A DNA stretch of 41,007 nucleotides. Origin: a virus. Within the stretch, counting starts at the first letter, position 1, and every line of letters begins with the position of its first letter. The DNA lies in UHGV virus genome UHGV-0067929; one strand, 5' to 3'. The translations under genes were made by a program, and so were the position numbers. The notes below the pieces were generated by a model. That model did not search any database and was not told where the DNA came from. It saw only the letters and a program-made list of their open reading frames with translations. This document shows, piece after piece, positions 3,704 through 7,099 of the stretch.

Positions 3704-4288
3704 TTATTGTTTGTTTTTTTCGTTCTGGTTGATGACAAATTCAATGTAACTTTCGATCTTTGCCTTCTCTGTTTCAGGTAACAATGCGTAGCGCGAGCGG
3801 TCATAGTTGATAGTTGCAGGGTCATGCGGATGGATCAGTAGTTCATATCCGTGACGCCCGAATGCAGATGCAACATTCTCCAGGGTGGAAATGGAAACGC
3901 TGACCTCATTGTTTAACAGGCGGCTTATTGTCACCTGGGCGACGCCGGATGCGCGGTGAAGTTTTCCCTGAGTTGAAAGGTCGCGGCTTTCACTCATCCA
4001 GCGTTCCAGGTTGTGAGCTGCCAGCTGACCAATGTCGCTTGGGCCGACAGGCTGAAAACCTTCCTGAGAAAGCGAGCGATCGATATCAAGCCAGTTACGG
4101 GGTTTATTGGCGGCAGCTTCAATTTTTCGCGCAACCTGGTCGCCGATAACCTTCTTGCCAAGAGCCCAGCGGTTTACCAGATTTGCCTGAGTTCCAAGTT
4201 TTTCTGCCATCCGCGTCTGAACACCATTGAATTCACGGTCGATCAAGTCGTTGAGATTTTGCCTGCGGACGTCCTGGATACTTTTCAT
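3704..4288 (-). CDS. CI-like prophage repressor with two HTH regions, no peptidase S24 domain
   Basis: 194 aa; HTH-like segments MAEKLGTQANLVNRW and SGVAQVTISRLLNNEVSVSISTLENVASAF; divergent from Cro-like gene with palindromic operators between. Confidence 0.65.
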   Translation of the reverse strand: MKSIQDVRRQNLNDLIDREFNGVQTRMAEKLGTQANLVNRWALGKKVIGDQVARKIEAAANKPRNWLDIDRSLSQEGFQPVGPSDIGQLAAHNLERWMSESRDLSTQGKLHRASGVAQVTISRLLNNEVSVSISTLENVASAFGRHGYELLIHPHDPATINYDRSRYALLPETEKAKIESYIEFVINQNEKNKQ

Positions 4289-4342
4289 TTTCTGGAAAAT
4301 CGCCTCATATATGAATCAGTAGATGATTCAATTTAAAGCAAT

Positions 4343-4359
4343 ATTACCCAACAGGTAAA
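4343..4359. promoter_or_regulatory. operator-like palindrome ATTACCCAACAGGTAAA (repressor/cro intergenic)
   Basis: Same ATTACC-N5-GGTAA pattern. Confidence 0.55.
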
Positions 4360-4381
4360 TGCACCTCATAGGTAACTATCC

Positions 4382-4410
4382 TTGATTTTTGTTACCTTAT
4401 GGGTGAATAT
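4382..4410 (+). promoter_or_regulatory. sigma70-like promoter for Cro-like gene
   Basis: TTGATT - 17 nt - GAATAT, 33 nt upstream of ATG 4443. Confidence 0.5.
4391..4407. promoter_or_regulatory. operator-like site GTTACCTTATGGGTGAA within spacer of cro promoter
   Basis: Imperfect copy; sits between -35 TTGATT (4382-4387) and -10 GAATAT (4405-4410). Confidence 0.5.
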
Positions 4411-4430
4411 TTATTATCTGAAATAAATAT
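4407..4430. promoter_or_regulatory. inverted repeat ATATTTAT-N8-ATAAATAT at cro 5' region
   Basis: 8-bp perfect arms overlapping the -10 and transcript start region. Confidence 0.35.
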
Positions 4431-4442
4431 CAGGCAATAGCT

Positions 4443-4673
4443 ATGAGCGATAACGGACATTTCGATTTCAAAAAGCACTGGCTTGCACTTACTCCGGATG
4501 AGCGTGAAGCCTTCGCACAGGAAGCCGGAACGACGAGTCACTATATCCAGACTCACTTAACAGGTAAGCGCAAAATGCCAGGTAAGGTATTGATGAATGG
4601 GCTTTTTAAAGCCTGTAAAACAAGACAATGGCTGCGCTCAAAAGCGGAACTGGCATACTTCTTCTACTCATGA
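4443..4673 (+). CDS. Cro-like small DNA-binding regulator
   Basis: 76 aa; position divergent from repressor, own promoter with operator in spacer; followed by an intrinsic terminator. Confidence 0.55.
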   Translation: MSDNGHFDFKKHWLALTPDEREAFAQEAGTTSHYIQTHLTGKRKMPGKVLMNGLFKACKTRQWLRSKAELAYFFYS

Positions 4674-4823: not shown

Positions 4824-5024
4824 ATGGAAATCATTACACGTATTGATGCCGCAAAGCGCGGACTTAAACGCTACTACACCGGAAAAACATGTAAGCACGG
4901 ACATGACAGTGAACGCTGGGTTTACAACGGACACTGTGTTGAGTGCACCATGGAATCAAACCGTCGTATCAGGGCAGAGATTAAGCAGATCATGATTAAT
5001 TCCTCCCCACAACATTCAAGCTGA
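4824..5024 (+). CDS. small Cys/His-rich (zinc-ribbon-like) protein
   Basis: CKHGH...HCVEC spacing; start chosen at ATG 4824, the track TTG start at 4761 lacks support. Confidence 0.35.
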   Translation: MEIITRIDAAKRGLKRYYTGKTCKHGHDSERWVYNGHCVECTMESNRRIRAEIKQIMINSSPQHSS

Positions 5025-5039
5025 TAGCGGAGATTAATC

Positions 5040-5855
5040 ATGAGCAGACATGCAACAGATTGGGCCTGGGAGACAGATCCAGGTAGCTCGTCATTAAAGC
5101 TCATACTGCTCTCGATGGCTGACAGAGCCGATGAATATAACCTCTGCTACCCCAGCATAGAACGCCTCGTTAAAGACACTTGCCTGAATAAAAAAACCGT
5201 GCAGGCCGGGCTTATATCGCTCATGAAAATGGGGCTTATTTCAGATACCGGAGAGAGAAAGGGAGCGACGAAAAGAGTGCGGGTTTTCTCTCTTAATATA
5301 ACCAAAAAAGGGAACATTAAAGGCAACCTAGAAGGACGTAATGAACCCGAAAACGGTAATGTTCCCGAAAACGGGAATATACCCAAAAACGGGATGTTGA
5401 ATGATCCCAAAAACGGGATGTTGAATGATCCCAAAAACGGGATCCAGAACCAGTCATATAACCAGTCATTTAACCAAGAGAGGGAGAGCAGGACAAAAAG
5501 CGGGGATTCTGTGCCTCATGACCCCGGAGCAAACAACGCCGTGATGAATAACTTTGTTCCTCCTGGTGGGCCAGGGCAATTAGGAAAATTTGTCATGCAT
5601 GAACAATGGCAGCCATCAGATGACTTTCTTCGGAAAAGCTCATTGCAGGGGATCTACCTGGACAGTCTGCCAACGGCACAGGAACTTGCAGAGTTCAGAA
5701 TTTACTGGATGGCTGAGGGTAAGGCATACCATCAGGCACAGTGGGAGCAGAAGCTGGCAAGGCGGCTGCAGATTAGCAGACAGAAGCAATCAACATTACC
5801 TGATAACAACGTTCCGCACTGGAACAGCCCTGAAGCATGGGAGGATTTCTTGTGA
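5040..5855 (+). CDS. replication initiation protein (lambda O analogue; N-terminal winged-helix, DnaT-like C-terminus)
   Basis: 271 aa; position before P-like gene; central linker encoded by tandem iterons; C-terminal WQPSDDFL...EFRIYWMAEG...QWEQKL pattern. Confidence 0.7.
   Translation: MSRHATDWAWETDPGSSSLKLILLSMADRADEYNLCYPSIERLVKDTCLNKKTVQAGLISLMKMGLISDTGERKGATKRVRVFSLNITKKGNIKGNLEGRNEPENGNVPENGNIPKNGMLNDPKNGMLNDPKNGIQNQSYNQSFNQERESRTKSGDSVPHDPGANNAVMNNFVPPGGPGQLGKFVMHEQWQPSDDFLRKSSLQGIYLDSLPTAQELAEFRIYWMAEGKAYHQAQWEQKLARRLQISRQKQSTLPDNNVPHWNSPEAWEDFL
5346..5444. repeat. iteron array inside replication initiator gene (candidate ori)
   Basis: Five direct repeats CCC(G/A)AAAACGG(T/G)A at 5346, 5364, 5382, 5406, 5430 (spacing 18,18,24,24), followed by CCAGTCAT-TAACC doublet. 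Confidence 0.6.
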
Positions 5856-6637
5856 ACAACGTTTTTACCGCGATACAAAACCGTGACGGAGAAGCCCTTT
5901 CTCGCATGTCAGGTTATGAGCATCAGTACGTCAACAATGACAATGTGGTGAACATGTCAGCAGAGAGGCTTGTTGATGCCCTTTTCAAACAGCTGAAACA
6001 ACTGTTTCCGGCGGCAGTGGTAACCAACCTGAAGACGCCAGAGCAGGAAGTCGCTGCAAAACAGCAGTGGATTGCTGCGTTTGCCGAAGGGGGGATCCGA
6101 ACCCGTGAACAGGTTTCTGCTGGTATGCGCCACGCCCGCGCCAGTGAATCTCCGTTCTGGCCGTCGCCAGGGCAATTCATCAAGTGGTGTAAAGACAGTA
6201 AGATGGTTCTTGGCGTCACCATTGACGATGTGATGGCGGAGTTTCACCGGTACAGCAAGGAAAAAAGTTTATATCCTGGTGGTCCCGAAAGATTCCCGTG
6301 GCGACATCCGGTTATGTACTGGGTCGTATGTGATACCCGCCGTGCAATGTATCAGCGCCAGCTTAGCGAGATTGAGGTTGAGAAACACGCGCGCAGGCTG
6401 CTCGATGATTGGGCGAAAAAGGTGGCTTCCGGACAGCAGATACCCGATCCGGTGATCAGCATACAGGCAAAGCCAGAGCCCATGAGTACACCTCCGGACA
6501 CAGGGAGAGACGTTTACCATCCACCAGGGCGAAGTTTCGGGTGCATGCCTAACGCCGCCACCCTTGGGGGAATAACACCGGCTCAGTGGCTGATGGAGGA
6601 ATACAGGCGAGGAAAGGCGGCAGGATTTATCAAGTAA
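5837..6637 (+). CDS. replication protein P-like helicase loader
   Basis: Strong resemblance to lambda P as recalled: QWIAAFAEGGIRTREQVSAGMRHARASESPFWPSPGQFIKWCKD versus RQWVLAFRENGITTMEQVNAGMRVARRQNRPFLPSPGQFVAWCRE. Confidence 0.8.
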   Translation: MGGFLVNNVFTAIQNRDGEALSRMSGYEHQYVNNDNVVNMSAERLVDALFKQLKQLFPAAVVTNLKTPEQEVAAKQQWIAAFAEGGIRTREQVSAGMRHARASESPFWPSPGQFIKWCKDSKMVLGVTIDDVMAEFHRYSKEKSLYPGGPERFPWRHPVMYWVVCDTRRAMYQRQLSEIEVEKHARRLLDDWAKKVASGQQIPDPVISIQAKPEPMSTPPDTGRDVYHPPGRSFGCMPNAATLGGITPAQWLMEEYRRGKAAGFIK

Positions 6638-6673
6638 TACCAGCGCGATAGCGCATTTTTTTACGCTTCGATA

Positions 6674-6690
6674 ATTACCTGTTGGGTAAT
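6674..6690. promoter_or_regulatory. operator-like palindrome ATTACCTGTTGGGTAAT
   Basis: Perfect arms; upstream of -35 of promoter for 6755 gene. Confidence 0.55.
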
Positions 6691-6708
6691 AAAATATTCT
6701 AAAATCTA

Positions 6709-6737
6709 TTGATTTCGTGTCTTATGTGGTTTTTAAT
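6709..6737 (+). promoter_or_regulatory. sigma70-like promoter for nin-like operon
   Basis: TTGATT - 17 nt - TTTAAT. Confidence 0.45.
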
Positions 6738-6752
6738 TACCTCAGAGGTAAA
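6736..6752. promoter_or_regulatory. operator-like palindrome ATTACCTCAGAGGTAAA
   Basis: Overlaps -10/+1 and ends 2 nt before ATG 6755. Confidence 0.55.
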
Positions 6753-6754
6753 TC

Positions 6755-7099
6755 ATGAGAAAACAGATACAGGCTCTTGGTCGACTCAAAACAGGTCAGA
6801 TGAACAAAACAGAATCTGCGTATTGCCAGCACCTTGAGCTGCGTAAACGTGCAGGAGAAATCGTCTGGTATCGATTTGAGGGTATCAAGCTGCGGTTAGC
6901 TGACAACACGTTCTATACGCCCGATTTTGCTGTGATGCTCGCCACCGGCGAGATGGAACTGCACGAAGTGAAAGGTTTCTGGACCGACGACGCCAGGGTG
7001 AAAACCAAAGTCGCCGCAGATCAGTATCCGTTCCGAATCATCGGGGTAACGGTTAAACCAAAGAAAGCAGGTGGTGGCTGGATCATCGAAGAGTTCTGA
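6755..7099 (+). CDS. PD-(D/E)xK nuclease-fold protein (VRR-NUC-like)
   Basis: 114 aa; YTPDF...ELHEVKG (PD...ExK) arrangement. Confidence 0.45.
   Translation: MRKQIQALGRLKTGQMNKTESAYCQHLELRKRAGEIVWYRFEGIKLRLADNTFYTPDFAVMLATGEMELHEVKGFWTDDARVKTKVAADQYPFRIIGVTVKPKKAGGGWIIEEF

What the first reader, a model, noticed from the sequence alone, without database searches (positions are those of the whole stretch)
5346..5470. Iteron array embedded in the replication initiator gene (candidate phage origin)
Five direct repeats of CCC(G/A)AAAACGG(G/T)A at 18- and 24-bp spacing lie in the middle of the O-like gene, where they encode the low-complexity PENGNVPENGNIPKNGMLNDPKNG linker, followed by a CCAGTCAT doublet. 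This mirrors lambda, where the ori iterons lie inside gene O. The first iteron ends in GGTAAT, the operator half-site, which may be coincidence.
Basis: partly seen in the sequence, partly recalled or inferred. Interest (0 to 1): 0.45.

Follow-up and report, generated by a model that had tools for sequence, protein, structure and literature searches.

The report
Predicted phage replication origin inside initiator gene
The repeats are real and are very probably the replication origin of a phiV10-like temperate E. coli phage, built like phage lambda's (initiator-binding sites inside the initiator's own gene); this is an expected arrangement that has not been tested experimentally here.

Summary
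Five direct repeats with core CCC(G/A)AAAACGG start at 5346, 5364, 5382, 5406 and 5430, spaced 18, 18, 24 and 24 bp. A weaker sixth copy lies at 5301, and an AACCAGTCAT doublet follows at 5448-5471.

The repeats sit in the disordered linker of a 271-aa initiator: an N-terminal winged helix (Pfam HTH_36) and a C-terminal DnaT-like domain. A lambda P-type helicase-loader gene follows directly. The window is a phiV10-like Uetakevirus.

The key evidence is comparative. In 24 of 28 homologous genes, from Enterobacterales to Vibrio, Acinetobacter and Desulfovibrio, the same 10-bp core recurs in the same linker, on the coding strand only. It is read in all three reading frames (90/15/8 hits; about 0.34 off-frame hits expected by chance). 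The outer arms co-vary to keep dyad symmetry. So the DNA is conserved, not the peptide.

The "doublet" is also conserved DNA, at a fixed distance after the last repeat, and is read in two frames.

Edwardsiella phage GF-2 joins this N-domain and its repeats to lambda O's C-terminal domain.

Verdict: a lambda-style intragenic iteron origin and a new member of a known kind. Binding and origin firing are inferred. The window has no lambda-like AT-rich tract. GGTAAT in repeat 1 is coincidence.

The parts
5040..5855 (+). Replication initiator gene (271 aa): N-terminal winged helix, disordered repeat linker, C-terminal DnaT-like domain.
   Evidence: ORF. Pfam HTH_36 at aa 18-67 (E 1.8e-10) and DnaT C-domain at aa 184-252 (E 1.2e-15). 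PHROG 1032 'replication initiation protein', E 1e-107. 96-99% nucleotide identity to phiV10, PAS61 and phiv142-3.
5040..5300 (+). Coding region of the winged-helix DNA-binding domain (aa 1-87), the presumed iteron reader.
   Evidence: AlphaFold2 model: mean pLDDT 87.7, pTM 0.78, order H-H-(strand)-H-H-beta hairpin; residues 90-100 have pLDDT below 50. Foldseek finds only generic winged-helix proteins: MarR, Fur/PerR, TFE-alpha, and plasmid Rep 5kbj at E 0.04.
5301..5312 (+). Upstream weaker iteron copy (ACCAAAAAAGGG), 45 bp before iteron 1.
   Evidence: Matches the family core CC[AG]AA[AT]NNGG. Most close relatives encode TKNG at this position; phiV10 and BP9 read ACCAAAAACGGG.
5346..5357 (+). 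Iteron 1, CCCGAAAACGGT.
5364..5375 (+). Iteron 2, CCCGAAAACGGG. With its flanks it reads TTCCCG-AAAA-CGGGAA, a 16-bp palindrome around AAAA.
   Evidence: The first C is A (ACC, Thr) in phiV10 and in many relatives.
5382..5393 (+). Iteron 3, CCCAAAAACGGG.
   Evidence: Invariant in 44 distinct close relatives.
5406..5417 (+). Iteron 4, CCCAAAAACGGG (with flanks ATCCC-AAAAAC-GGGAT).
5430..5441 (+). Iteron 5, the last one (with flanks GATCCC-AAAAAC-GGGATC, 6-bp arms).
5444..5477 (+). Conserved post-iteron element: CAGAAC, then AACCAGTCATAT, AACCAGTCATTT and AACCAA. About 60% A+T. Candidate unwinding or loading element.
   Evidence: TRF 12-bp array. In 21 loci, CAGAAYC lies at a fixed +14 to +20 from the last core (C 21/21, A 21/21 and similar). 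AAYCNNYCA units at 12-13-nt period are read in two frames (26 in f0, 24 in f1), at 6.2 per kb against 0.39 per kb elsewhere. No third-codon position varies among 44 close relatives.
5478..5505 (+). Purine-rich tract (GAGAGGGAGAGCAGGACAAAAAGCGGGG) containing a decayed iteron-like ACAAAAAGCGGGG. It occupies the position of lambda's A-rich tract but is not AT-rich here.
   Evidence: 75% purine and 45% A+T at +45 to +85 after the last core. AT skew 0.6. The iteron-like part is polymorphic among relatives (TK-S/N/T/A-GD).
5589..5795 (+). Coding region of the DnaT-like C-terminal domain (aa 184-252), the presumed ssDNA-binding or helicase-loader contact module.
   Evidence: Pfam PF17948, E 1.2e-15. 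Matches solved E. coli DnaT chains 9zbt_D, 6aep_A and 4ou6_A with E 6e-21 to 4e-20, over DnaT residues 85-170 only.
5837..6637 (+). Lambda P-type helicase-loader gene, overlapping the end of the initiator gene.
   Evidence: Pfam Phage_lambda_P, E 1.5e-56. PHROG 109 'P-like helicase loader', E 4.7e-92.

Best explanation
The array is the replication origin of this phiV10-like temperate phage and is organised like ori-lambda.

Proposed mechanism:
1. The initiator's N-terminal winged-helix domain binds, probably as dimers, to five or six direct repeats of a roughly 16-bp imperfect palindrome ((A/T)TCCC-(A/G)AAAAC-GGGA(T/A)). These repeats lie in the part of its own gene that encodes the flexible linker.
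2. The multi-protein complex on these A-tract-containing sites distorts the DNA.
3. The duplex opens just to the right of the last repeat, in or near the conserved CAGAAC + AACCAGTCAT 12-mer element (5444-5477).
4. The C-terminal DnaT-like domain then brings in the P-like loader with host DnaB helicase.

Shown here: the repeats, their conservation as DNA, their dyad symmetry, the fold of the N-domain, the modular co-inheritance of domain and repeats, and the adjacent P-type gene.

Inferred: binding, the site of opening, helicase recruitment, and that replication actually starts here.
For: 1. The repeats are real and confined to this spot in the 41-kb window.

2. DNA-level conservation. The core CC[AG]AA[AT]NNGG occurs 2-8 times in the same linker of the homologous gene in 24 of 28 diverse loci. 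These include E. coli, Edwardsiella, Proteus, Providencia, Vibrio, Pseudoalteromonas, Acinetobacter, Marinobacterium, Wohlfahrtiimonas and Desulfovibrio. Hits are in the coding-strand orientation apart from a few near-palindromic variants, and there are almost none in the 2-kb flanks. Of 113 hits, 90 are read as P-(E/K)-N-G, 15 in the +1 frame (T-Q-K-R) and 8 in the third frame. About 0.34 off-frame hits are expected by chance. The off-frame copies lie in intact full-length ORFs such as GF-2, PPompW, L092 and L103.

3. Dyad symmetry with compensatory change in the arms: GATCCC/GGGATC, ACCCCC/GGGGGT, TGACCC/GGGTCA, GTGCC/GGCAC. Flank pairs outside the search pattern are complementary in 46-53% of 96 sites, against 26-34% expected from column composition.

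4. Modularity. The N-domain and its array are constant while the C-terminal domain varies. GF-2 carries this module fused to lambda O's C-terminal domain: 62% identity over 144 aa, starting at lambda O residue 156, just past lambda's A-rich tract.

5. Lambda's annotated iterons (ATCCCTCAAAACGAGGGA, ATCCCCTAAAACGAGGGA, ATCCCTCAAATTGGGGGA, ATCCCTCAAAACAGGGGG) have spacings of 20, 24 and 23 bp and lie in frames 0, 2, 2 and 1. They show the same build and near-identical arms and centre.

6. Copy number varies from 4 to 8, always by whole units, among 80 near-identical phages. Lambdoid Stx phages likewise carry 6 iterons against lambda's 4 (PMC7466680).

7. The N-domain is a confident winged helix followed by disorder. 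A P-type loader gene is adjacent.

8. There is no competing signal: no Rfam hit, and no unusual single-strand fold (z = -1.05).
Against: - There is no experimental evidence for binding or initiation in this phage or in any family member that I could find.
- The window has no lambda-like AT-rich tract next to the repeats. The 35 bp after the last iteron are 60% A+T against 52% background, and the next 40 bp are only 45% A+T. Only some family members (L092, L096, L098, L100, L101) reach 68-82% A+T there.
- The N-domain is not demonstrably homologous to lambda O's N-domain (hhalign E 0.029, probability 1.7%). The similarity of the iterons could be convergent.
- Polymorphism among close relatives is too low to show purifying selection on silent sites by itself: 3 of 44 third-codon positions vary in the array region, against 32 of 177 in the two domains.
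- Same-genus phages SPN1S and Tyrion have other N-domains and no obvious array. The arrangement is therefore a swappable module and not a fixed feature of the genus.
Confidence: 0.8

Rival explanations
1. The repeats are only a slippage-expanded, low-complexity protein linker (PENG/PKNG) with no cis-acting role, and the origin lies elsewhere.
For: - The 24-bp units are 100% identical and copy number varies among close relatives, as expected of slippage.
- The region is predicted to be disordered.
- The peptide motif P-(E/K)-N-G is also conserved.
Against: - The same DNA core is used in all three reading frames, within single intact genes and across genera (23 off-frame hits against 0.34 expected).
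- The arms co-vary to preserve a palindrome, which a peptide constraint cannot explain.
- The following 12-13-mers are likewise read in two frames.
- Orientation and position are fixed relative to the N-domain.
Confidence: 0.04
2. The repeats are genuine binding sites for the initiator, but they serve in control (autoregulation, titration or handcuffing, a transcription roadblock) and not as the start site. Unwinding would occur elsewhere, for example in the AT-richer intergenic regions at about 4300-4440 or 6640-6750.
For: - There is no strong AT-rich tract next to the array in this window.
- Iterons in plasmids have both initiation and control roles (PMC4980987; established knowledge).
- The lowest G+C near the gene (32.5%) lies upstream of the main array, at 5270-5329.
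Against: - In every characterised phage with this architecture the intragenic iterons are the origin: lambda and Stx phages (PMC7466680); the same inference is drawn for P22 and L (PMC8022706).
- A conserved non-iteron DNA element sits at a fixed distance from the last iteron in 21 loci, as expected for an opening or loading site.
- The GF-2 recombination junction keeps N-domain, iterons and 12-mers together as one unit.
Confidence: 0.1
3. The repeats are bound by some other protein (a host factor, or a phage partition or packaging protein) and belong to another kind of cis site that happens to lie in this gene.
For: - Arrays of short direct repeats also characterise centromere-like and pac sites (established knowledge).
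- No binding data exist for these repeats.
Against: - The array co-occurs strictly with one DNA-binding domain, across hosts as distant as Desulfovibrio and Acinetobacter and across different phage types.
- There are no DnaA boxes nearby.
- An integrating prophage has no need of a partition site.
Confidence: 0.04

Closest known systems
ori-lambda and the O/P replication module of lambdoid phages (lambda, Stx phages 933W and P27)
   Same: - Four to six direct repeats, each an imperfect inverted repeat, lie in the middle of the initiator gene between its DNA-binding N-domain and its C-terminal domain.
- Iterons are read in different frames.
- Copy number varies between relatives.
- A P-type helicase-loader gene lies immediately downstream.
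- The iteron sequence is strikingly alike: lambda ATCCC-TC-AAAAC-GA-GGGAT against ATCCC-AAAAAC-GGGAT here (PMC7466680).
   Different: - The N-domain is Pfam HTH_36, not Phage_rep_O, and homology to lambda O's N-domain is not demonstrable.
- The iterons are about 3 bp shorter.
- The C-domain is DnaT-like, not lambda O-C.
- There is no roughly 40-bp AT-rich tract. A conserved CAGAAC + AACCAGTCAT 12-13-mer element follows the last iteron instead.
P22 gene 18 and phage L gene 18 origins (repeats within the initiator gene, inferred as origins)
   Same: The same logic and architecture apply: distantly related ori-binding proteins each carry their own distinct iterons inside their coding region. For phage L the origin is inferred from the repeats alone (PMC8022706).
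   Different: The repeat sequences differ (phage L: TGTCCAACGGA). Those phages pair the initiator with a DnaB-type helicase (gp12), not a P-type loader.
Edwardsiella phage GF-2 ORF62 ('replication initiation O-like') and the wider family of HTH_36 initiators (Vibrio phage Her and H20-like phages, Acinetobacter AP22 and Ab105-2phi, PPompW prophages)
   Same: Homologous N-domain (45-58% identity), the same iteron core, and the same post-iteron CAGAAYC / AAYCNNYCA element at the same offset.
   Different: The C-terminal domains and partner genes differ. GF-2 has the lambda O C-domain with a P gene. The Acinetobacter phages have other C-domains with a phage DnaB-like helicase. Vibrio phage Her has another C-domain and no P-type gene annotated downstream.
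Iteron-plasmid origins (RK2 oriV/TrfA, F/RepE, pPS10/RepA)
   Same: Direct repeats are bound by a winged-helix initiator. Short 13-mer-type repeats lie in the adjacent unwinding element, and Rep proteins can bind them sequence-specifically as ssDNA (PMC4081077, PMC4980987). This is a possible model for the 12-13-mers here.
   Different: - The plasmid origins are intergenic.
- Their initiators have two winged-helix domains (Rep_3 type).
- DnaA boxes are usually present; none is found here.
- Their unwinding elements are clearly AT-rich.
E. coli DnaT (primosomal protein I), the name given to this gene in several database records
   Same: The C-terminal 70-85 residues are homologous to the DnaT C-terminal DNA-binding domain.
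   Different: The match covers only DnaT residues 85-170. The N-terminal two thirds of this protein are a winged helix plus repeat linker that DnaT lacks. Gene context (cro-like gene, initiator, P) marks it as an origin-specific initiator and not a restart factor.

Membership tests
Lambda-type intragenic iteron origin (ori inside the O-like initiator gene) | Three or more direct repeats in the middle of the initiator gene, between the DNA-binding N-domain and the C-terminal domain. | tested here: met
   Five strong copies and one weak copy at 5301-5441, between the HTH_36 domain (aa 18-67) and the DnaT-like domain (aa 184-252).
Lambda-type intragenic iteron origin (ori inside the O-like initiator gene) | Each iteron is an imperfect inverted repeat, the binding site of a dimeric protein. 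| tested here: met
   TTCCCG-AAAA-CGGGAA and GATCCC-AAAAAC-GGGATC in the window. The arms co-vary across 21-96 sites from other loci. Lambda's iterons are 19-bp imperfect inverted repeats (PMC7466680).
Lambda-type intragenic iteron origin (ori inside the O-like initiator gene) | The repeats are constrained as DNA, independently of the encoded peptide. | tested here: met
   113 core hits in 24 loci fall in frames 90/15/8; 0.34 off-frame hits are expected by chance. Lambda's four iterons lie in frames 0, 2, 2 and 1 (coordinates).
Lambda-type intragenic iteron origin (ori inside the O-like initiator gene) | An AT-rich unwinding tract directly adjoins the iterons. | tested here: inconclusive
   The window has 60% A+T at +10 to +45 and 45% at +45 to +85, against 52% background. 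Some homologues reach 68-82%. A conserved 12-13-mer element occupies the position instead.
Lambda-type intragenic iteron origin (ori inside the O-like initiator gene) | A helicase-loader (P-type) or helicase gene lies immediately downstream of the initiator gene. | tested here: met
   5837-6637 is Phage_lambda_P (E 1.5e-56) and PHROG 109.
Lambda-type intragenic iteron origin (ori inside the O-like initiator gene) | The initiator binds the iterons and replication starts there. | not testable with these tools
   This needs EMSA or footprinting, mini-replicon assays, or marker-frequency analysis.
Lambda O protein family (Pfam Phage_rep_O, PF04492) | The N-terminal domain matches Phage_rep_O. | tested here: not met
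   Pfam gives HTH_36 only, whereas lambda O gives PF04492 at E 5.7e-36. The profile comparison with lambda O gives E 0.029 and probability 1.7%.
Lambda O protein family (Pfam Phage_rep_O, PF04492) | The C-terminal, P-interacting domain is homologous to lambda O residues about 156-299. | tested here: not met
   The window protein has a DnaT-like C-domain. The homologue in GF-2 does have the lambda O C-domain, 62% identical.
DnaT / primosomal protein I (the database name for this gene) | Full-length similarity to DnaT, including its N-terminal domain. | tested here: not met
   Only query residues 180-265 align, to DnaT residues 85-170. The N-terminus is a winged helix.
Iteron-plasmid origin (Rep_3-type initiator) | A two-winged-helix Rep initiator, DnaA box(es) and an AT-rich unwinding element with 13-mers next to intergenic iterons. 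| tested here: not met
   There is a single winged helix and no Rep_3 hit. No DnaA box lies within the region. The array is intragenic. 12-13-mer repeats are present but are not AT-rich.

The most novel reading that the evidence does not exclude
The CAGAAYC + (AAYCNNYCA) x 2-3 element may be a so far undescribed, sequence-specific origin component. It sits at a fixed distance from the last iteron and is conserved as DNA in two reading frames, from E. coli phages to Vibrio, Acinetobacter and Desulfovibrio prophages. It could be a strand-opening or helicase-loading motif recognised as single-stranded DNA, analogous to the 13-mers of plasmid unwinding elements or to DnaA-trios. In that case it would replace the simple AT-rich tract of lambda in a very widespread class of phage origins. 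These origins are defined by an HTH_36 winged-helix initiator module that is freely recombined with different helicase-recruiting C-terminal domains.
Probability: 0.3. Interest if true: 0.55.

Novelty: new member of a known kind. Interest (0 to 1): 0.35.

Why it matters
- It gives a precise, testable origin for phiV10-type phages, which are used as E. coli O157 reporter and typing phages. It also covers a large family of prophage initiators that databases mislabel as 'primosomal protein I / DnaT' or just 'helix-turn-helix protein'.
- It shows that the lambda solution, with the origin embedded in the linker-coding part of the initiator gene, extends to a second winged-helix family. That family's iterons look remarkably like lambda's.
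- The N-domain plus its origin moves as one recombination unit between different helicase-recruitment domains.
- Practically, the A5-containing repeats explain why many database entries for this gene are truncated, and they mark a hot spot of copy-number variation.
- The conserved 12-13-mer element is the one feature that could teach something new about how such origins are opened.

Tried and rejected
- **Operator half-site idea.** TTACC-N5-GGTAA is abundant in the window, but iteron 1 does not match it even with 2 mismatches. Rejected as coincidence.
- **Structured RNA.** The only Rfam hit is far below threshold (19.7 bits against a gathering score of 120.4), and the single-strand fold has z = -1.05. 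Rejected.
- **DnaA boxes near the array.** None were found, and the window-wide count is at chance level.
- **Lambda-like AT-rich tract.** Not present in the window.
- **Homology of the N-domain to lambda O.** hhalign is not significant. Foldseek against the PDB gives only generic winged-helix matches with E of 5e-3 or worse, so no specific initiator fold family can be claimed.
- **Selection on silent sites among 80 near-identical relatives.** The trend is in the right direction but there is too little divergence. A first attempt was spoiled by one relative with a shifted repeat architecture.
- **Protein database searches with the N-domain**. These returned mostly truncated fragments of 150 aa or less, useful only as an alignment for structure prediction.
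- **First genome-contig scan.** It failed because the alignment had no sufficiently conserved stretch and was repeated with a tighter alignment.
- **Literature.** No paper in the held library describes an origin for phiV10, epsilon15 or these motifs. The epsilon15 genome paper could not be retrieved, so a prior mention there cannot be excluded.
- **Same-genus phages SPN1S and Tyrion.** I checked them for equivalent arrays. They have different N-domains and none was found.
Full report
**What the window is.** The 816-bp gene at 5040-5855 is 96-99% identical at the nucleotide level to the 'primosomal / replication initiation protein' gene of Escherichia phage phiV10 and its relatives PAS61, EC.W1-9 and phiv142-3 (genus Uetakevirus, temperate podophages). 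The local gene order is:
- a repressor-like gene (3704-4288, minus strand);
- a cro-like gene (4443-4673);
- a small ORF (4824-5024);
- the initiator (5040-5855);
- a lambda P-type helicase loader (5837-6637);
- a DUF1064 gene.

None of the public records I inspected annotates an origin here.

**The observation.** Cores CCCGAAAACGGT, CCCGAAAACGGG and three copies of CCCAAAAACGGG start at 5346, 5364, 5382, 5406 and 5430. AACCAGTCATAT, AACCAGTCATTT and AACCAA follow at 5448-5477. Tandem Repeats Finder reports 18-bp, 24-bp (100% identical) and 12-bp arrays. The motif occurs nowhere else in the 41 kb. A sixth, weaker copy lies at 5301-5312. It is a better match in most relatives, which encode TKNG there (phiV10 and BP9 read ACCAAAAACGGG).

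**The protein.** Pfam finds HTH_36 at residues 18-67 and the DnaT C-terminal DNA-binding domain at 184-252. The C-domain aligns with solved E. coli DnaT chains, but only with their residues 85-170. An AlphaFold2 model of residues 1-100, built on 36 homologues, is confident (pLDDT 87.7). It is a winged helix, and everything from residue 90 onward is disordered. Structure search returns only generic winged-helix proteins. The repeats therefore encode the flexible linker between a DNA-binding domain and a second domain, which is exactly the situation in lambda O.

**Peptide or DNA?** This was the central question. I collected homologues of the N-domain from annotated phages and from one genome per species. 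Nearly all have a repeat array at the same place.

The 10-bp core CC[AG]AA[AT]NNGG occurs 2-8 times in the linker of 24 of 28 diverse genes. Hits are in the coding-strand orientation, apart from a few near-palindromic variants, and the 2-kb flanks hold essentially no excess. The hosts include Escherichia, Superficieibacter, Edwardsiella, Proteus, Providencia, Phaseolibacter, Vibrio, Pseudoalteromonas, Marinobacterium, Wohlfahrtiimonas, Acinetobacter, Desulfovibrio and a Zoogloeaceae MAG.

Of 113 hits, 90 are read as P-(E/K)-(N/I)-G, 15 in the next frame (T-Q-K-R) and 8 in the third frame. Several frames often occur within one intact gene:
- GF-2: TQKR, then PKIG three times;
- L092: frames 1, 0, 2, 1, 1;
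- L104: frames alternating 0 and 1.

Chance predicts about 0.34 off-frame hits. A peptide constraint cannot produce this. The DNA word is what is conserved.

The bases flanking the core co-vary to keep a palindrome: GATCCC/GGGATC, ACCCCC/GGGGGT, TGACCC/GGGTCA, GTGCC/GGCAC, GTACC/GGTAC. Pairs outside the search pattern are complementary in 46-53% of 96 sites, against 26-34% expected from column composition. That is the signature of a site read by a symmetric protein dimer.

**The 'CCAGTCAT doublet' is part of the same conserved DNA.** In 21 loci the last iteron is followed at a fixed offset by CAGAAYC (individual positions 18-21 of 21 identical). Two or three units of AAYCNNYCA then follow with a period of 12 or 13 nt.

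Where the period is 13 (Vibrio, Pseudoalteromonas and others), successive units fall in different frames (NQS... then EPV...). In the window the period is 12, and both are read as NQS(Y/F). The DNA AACCAGTCAT-N2-3-AACCAGTCAT-N2-AACCAAG is nonetheless the same in the window and in Vibrio phage Her. The frames split 26 to 24, and the density is 6.2 per kb in the linker against 0.39 per kb elsewhere. Among 44 distinct close relatives this stretch and iterons 3-5 are invariant.

**Comparison with lambda itself.** The lambda record annotates four iterons inside gene O. Read from the sequence they are ATCCCTCAAAACGAGGGA, ATCCCCTAAAACGAGGGA, ATCCCTCAAATTGGGGGA and ATCCCTCAAAACAGGGGG. They are spaced 20, 24 and 23 bp, lie in reading frames 0, 2, 2 and 1, and are followed by an A-rich tract.

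The window's iterons (ATCCC-AAAAAC-GGGAT) share lambda's arms and centre but are about 3 bp shorter. The variant centre AAATT of lambda iteron 3 also appears in GF-2 and the Acinetobacter phages. Protein homology between the two N-domains is not demonstrable, however (E 0.029, probability 1.7%). Shared ancestry therefore remains a conjecture.

Published work establishes four points about lambda (PMC7466680):
- its iterons are 19-bp imperfect inverted repeats bound by O;
- the origin lies in the middle of O;
- Stx phages carry six iterons where lambda has four;
- the adjacent AT-rich tract is where unwinding occurs.

For P22 and phage L, origins are routinely inferred from such intragenic repeats (PMC8022706).

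**Modularity.** The N-domain and its array are combined with different C-terminal domains:
- DnaT-like (window, L102, L093);
- lambda O C-domain (GF-2);
- several others (Proteus/Providencia type, Vibrio/Pseudoalteromonas type, Acinetobacter types next to a phage DnaB-like helicase).

GF-2's protein is 62% identical to lambda O over its last 144 residues. The junction falls at lambda O residue 156, immediately after lambda's A-rich tract. So the natural recombination unit is 'DNA-binding domain + iterons + post-iteron element'. That is what is expected if the domain reads those sites and the C-domain recruits the helicase machinery.

Conversely, the same-genus phages SPN1S and Tyrion have the DnaT-like C-domain behind unrelated N-domains, with no such array.

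**Population variation.** Among 80 viral contigs with an essentially identical N-domain, the array has 4 to 8 (P/T)(E/K)NG units, always differing by whole 18- or 24-bp units. The 12-mer has 2 or 3 copies.

**What does not fit, or is missing.**
- The window lacks a lambda-like AT-rich tract. The 12-mer element is about 60% A+T, and the next 40 bp are purine-rich (75%) but only 45% A+T. Only some family members have a strongly AT-rich tract there.
- There are no DnaA boxes nearby, no RNA family hit and no unusual folding.
- No experimental data exist, and I found no paper describing this origin.

**Mechanism proposed.**
1. Dimers of the winged-helix domain occupy the five or six iterons.
2. The A-tract-containing array is wrapped or bent into an O-some-like complex.
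3. Strand opening occurs at or just beyond the conserved 12-mer element.
4. The DnaT-like C-domain, whose E. coli relative binds ssDNA, stabilises the open strands and/or contacts the P-like loader carrying host DnaB.

The architecture is shown here. Every step of this mechanism is inferred by analogy with lambda.

**Verdict.** This is a predicted lambda-style intragenic iteron origin in a different winged-helix initiator family, a new member of a known kind. A specialist would expect it, so interest is modest (0.35). The one element that could be new is the conserved, frame-independent 12-13-mer motif that stands where lambda has its AT-rich tract.

Noticed in passing
window 3570, 3632, 4344, 6675, 6737, 10082, 13290, 30807, 31393, 31486, 34508, 34889 (15-bp sites); cluster at 4344-4406: The palindrome TTACC-N5-GGTAA occurs 12 times perfectly across the genome. 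With up to 2 mismatches there are 45 hits, against 12.3 +/- 3.9 in shuffles, and none of 100 shuffles reaches 45. Several sites sit just upstream of start codons (6737-6751 lies before the ATG at 6755). Three cluster between the repressor-like and cro-like genes. A perfect 17-nt inverted pair links 4342-4358 and 6675-6691. The motif is a dispersed operator or a hairpin that includes the ribosome-binding site. The SPN1S locus also has ATTACCATAAAGGTAAA in tandem.
   Followed up: partly
database proteins P0001-P0073 (homologues of window 5040-5339): Most database entries for this N-domain are truncated at 90-150 aa, inside the repeat zone, or run on in a wrong frame (for example P0015 ...FECTQKRVFECTQKRV...). 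The A5 runs and tandem repeats apparently cause frameshifts, mis-called genes or contig breaks.
   Followed up: no
L002 (PP488543.1, Escherichia phage BP9, 131937-138295) and PP350014.1 (phage PH444): A 138-kb Vequintavirus record (BP9) ends with a phiV10-like recombination, immunity and replication block that is 95% identical to the window. A 115-kb unannotated 'phage PH444' record also contains it. These look like chimeric assemblies or co-assembled prophage DNA.
   Followed up: no
L118 (Salmonella phage SPN1S) 748-1563 and L119 (Enterobacter phage Tyrion) 940-1707: Phages of the same genus carry the same DnaT-like C-domain behind unrelated N-terminal domains, with no PKNG-type array. SPN1S also has no P-type gene after its initiator. 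Replication modules are swapped within the genus.
   Followed up: partly
L104 (Granulosicoccaceae MAG) 2001-2447: The homologous ORF stops after 149 aa, inside the 12-13-mer element (TAG within ...CTATCAGTAGGAACC...). The iterons alternate between two reading frames in a 48-bp super-repeat. It may be a decayed prophage gene.
   Followed up: no
window 5390-5433, minus strand: The consensus scan calls two 'terminator-like' hairpins (TGGGATCATTCAACATCCCG + TTTTTGGG) on the antisense strand. They are formed by the arms of adjacent iterons and their A-tracts. They are probably a by-product of the iteron palindromes, but they could stop antisense transcription.
   Followed up: no
window 5837-5855: The longest ORF for the P-like gene (ATG at 5837) overlaps the initiator gene by 19 nt. 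phiV10 annotates the start 15 nt later, giving a 4-nt overlap. The true start is uncertain; either way the genes appear translationally coupled.
   Followed up: no
window 5364-5375 in phiV10-type relatives (ACCGAAAACGG): A trivial coincidence: the variant iteron ACCGAAAACGGT is identical to a papillomavirus E2-binding site (ACCG-N4-CGGT), which is why the literature search for the motif returned HPV papers.
   Followed up: no
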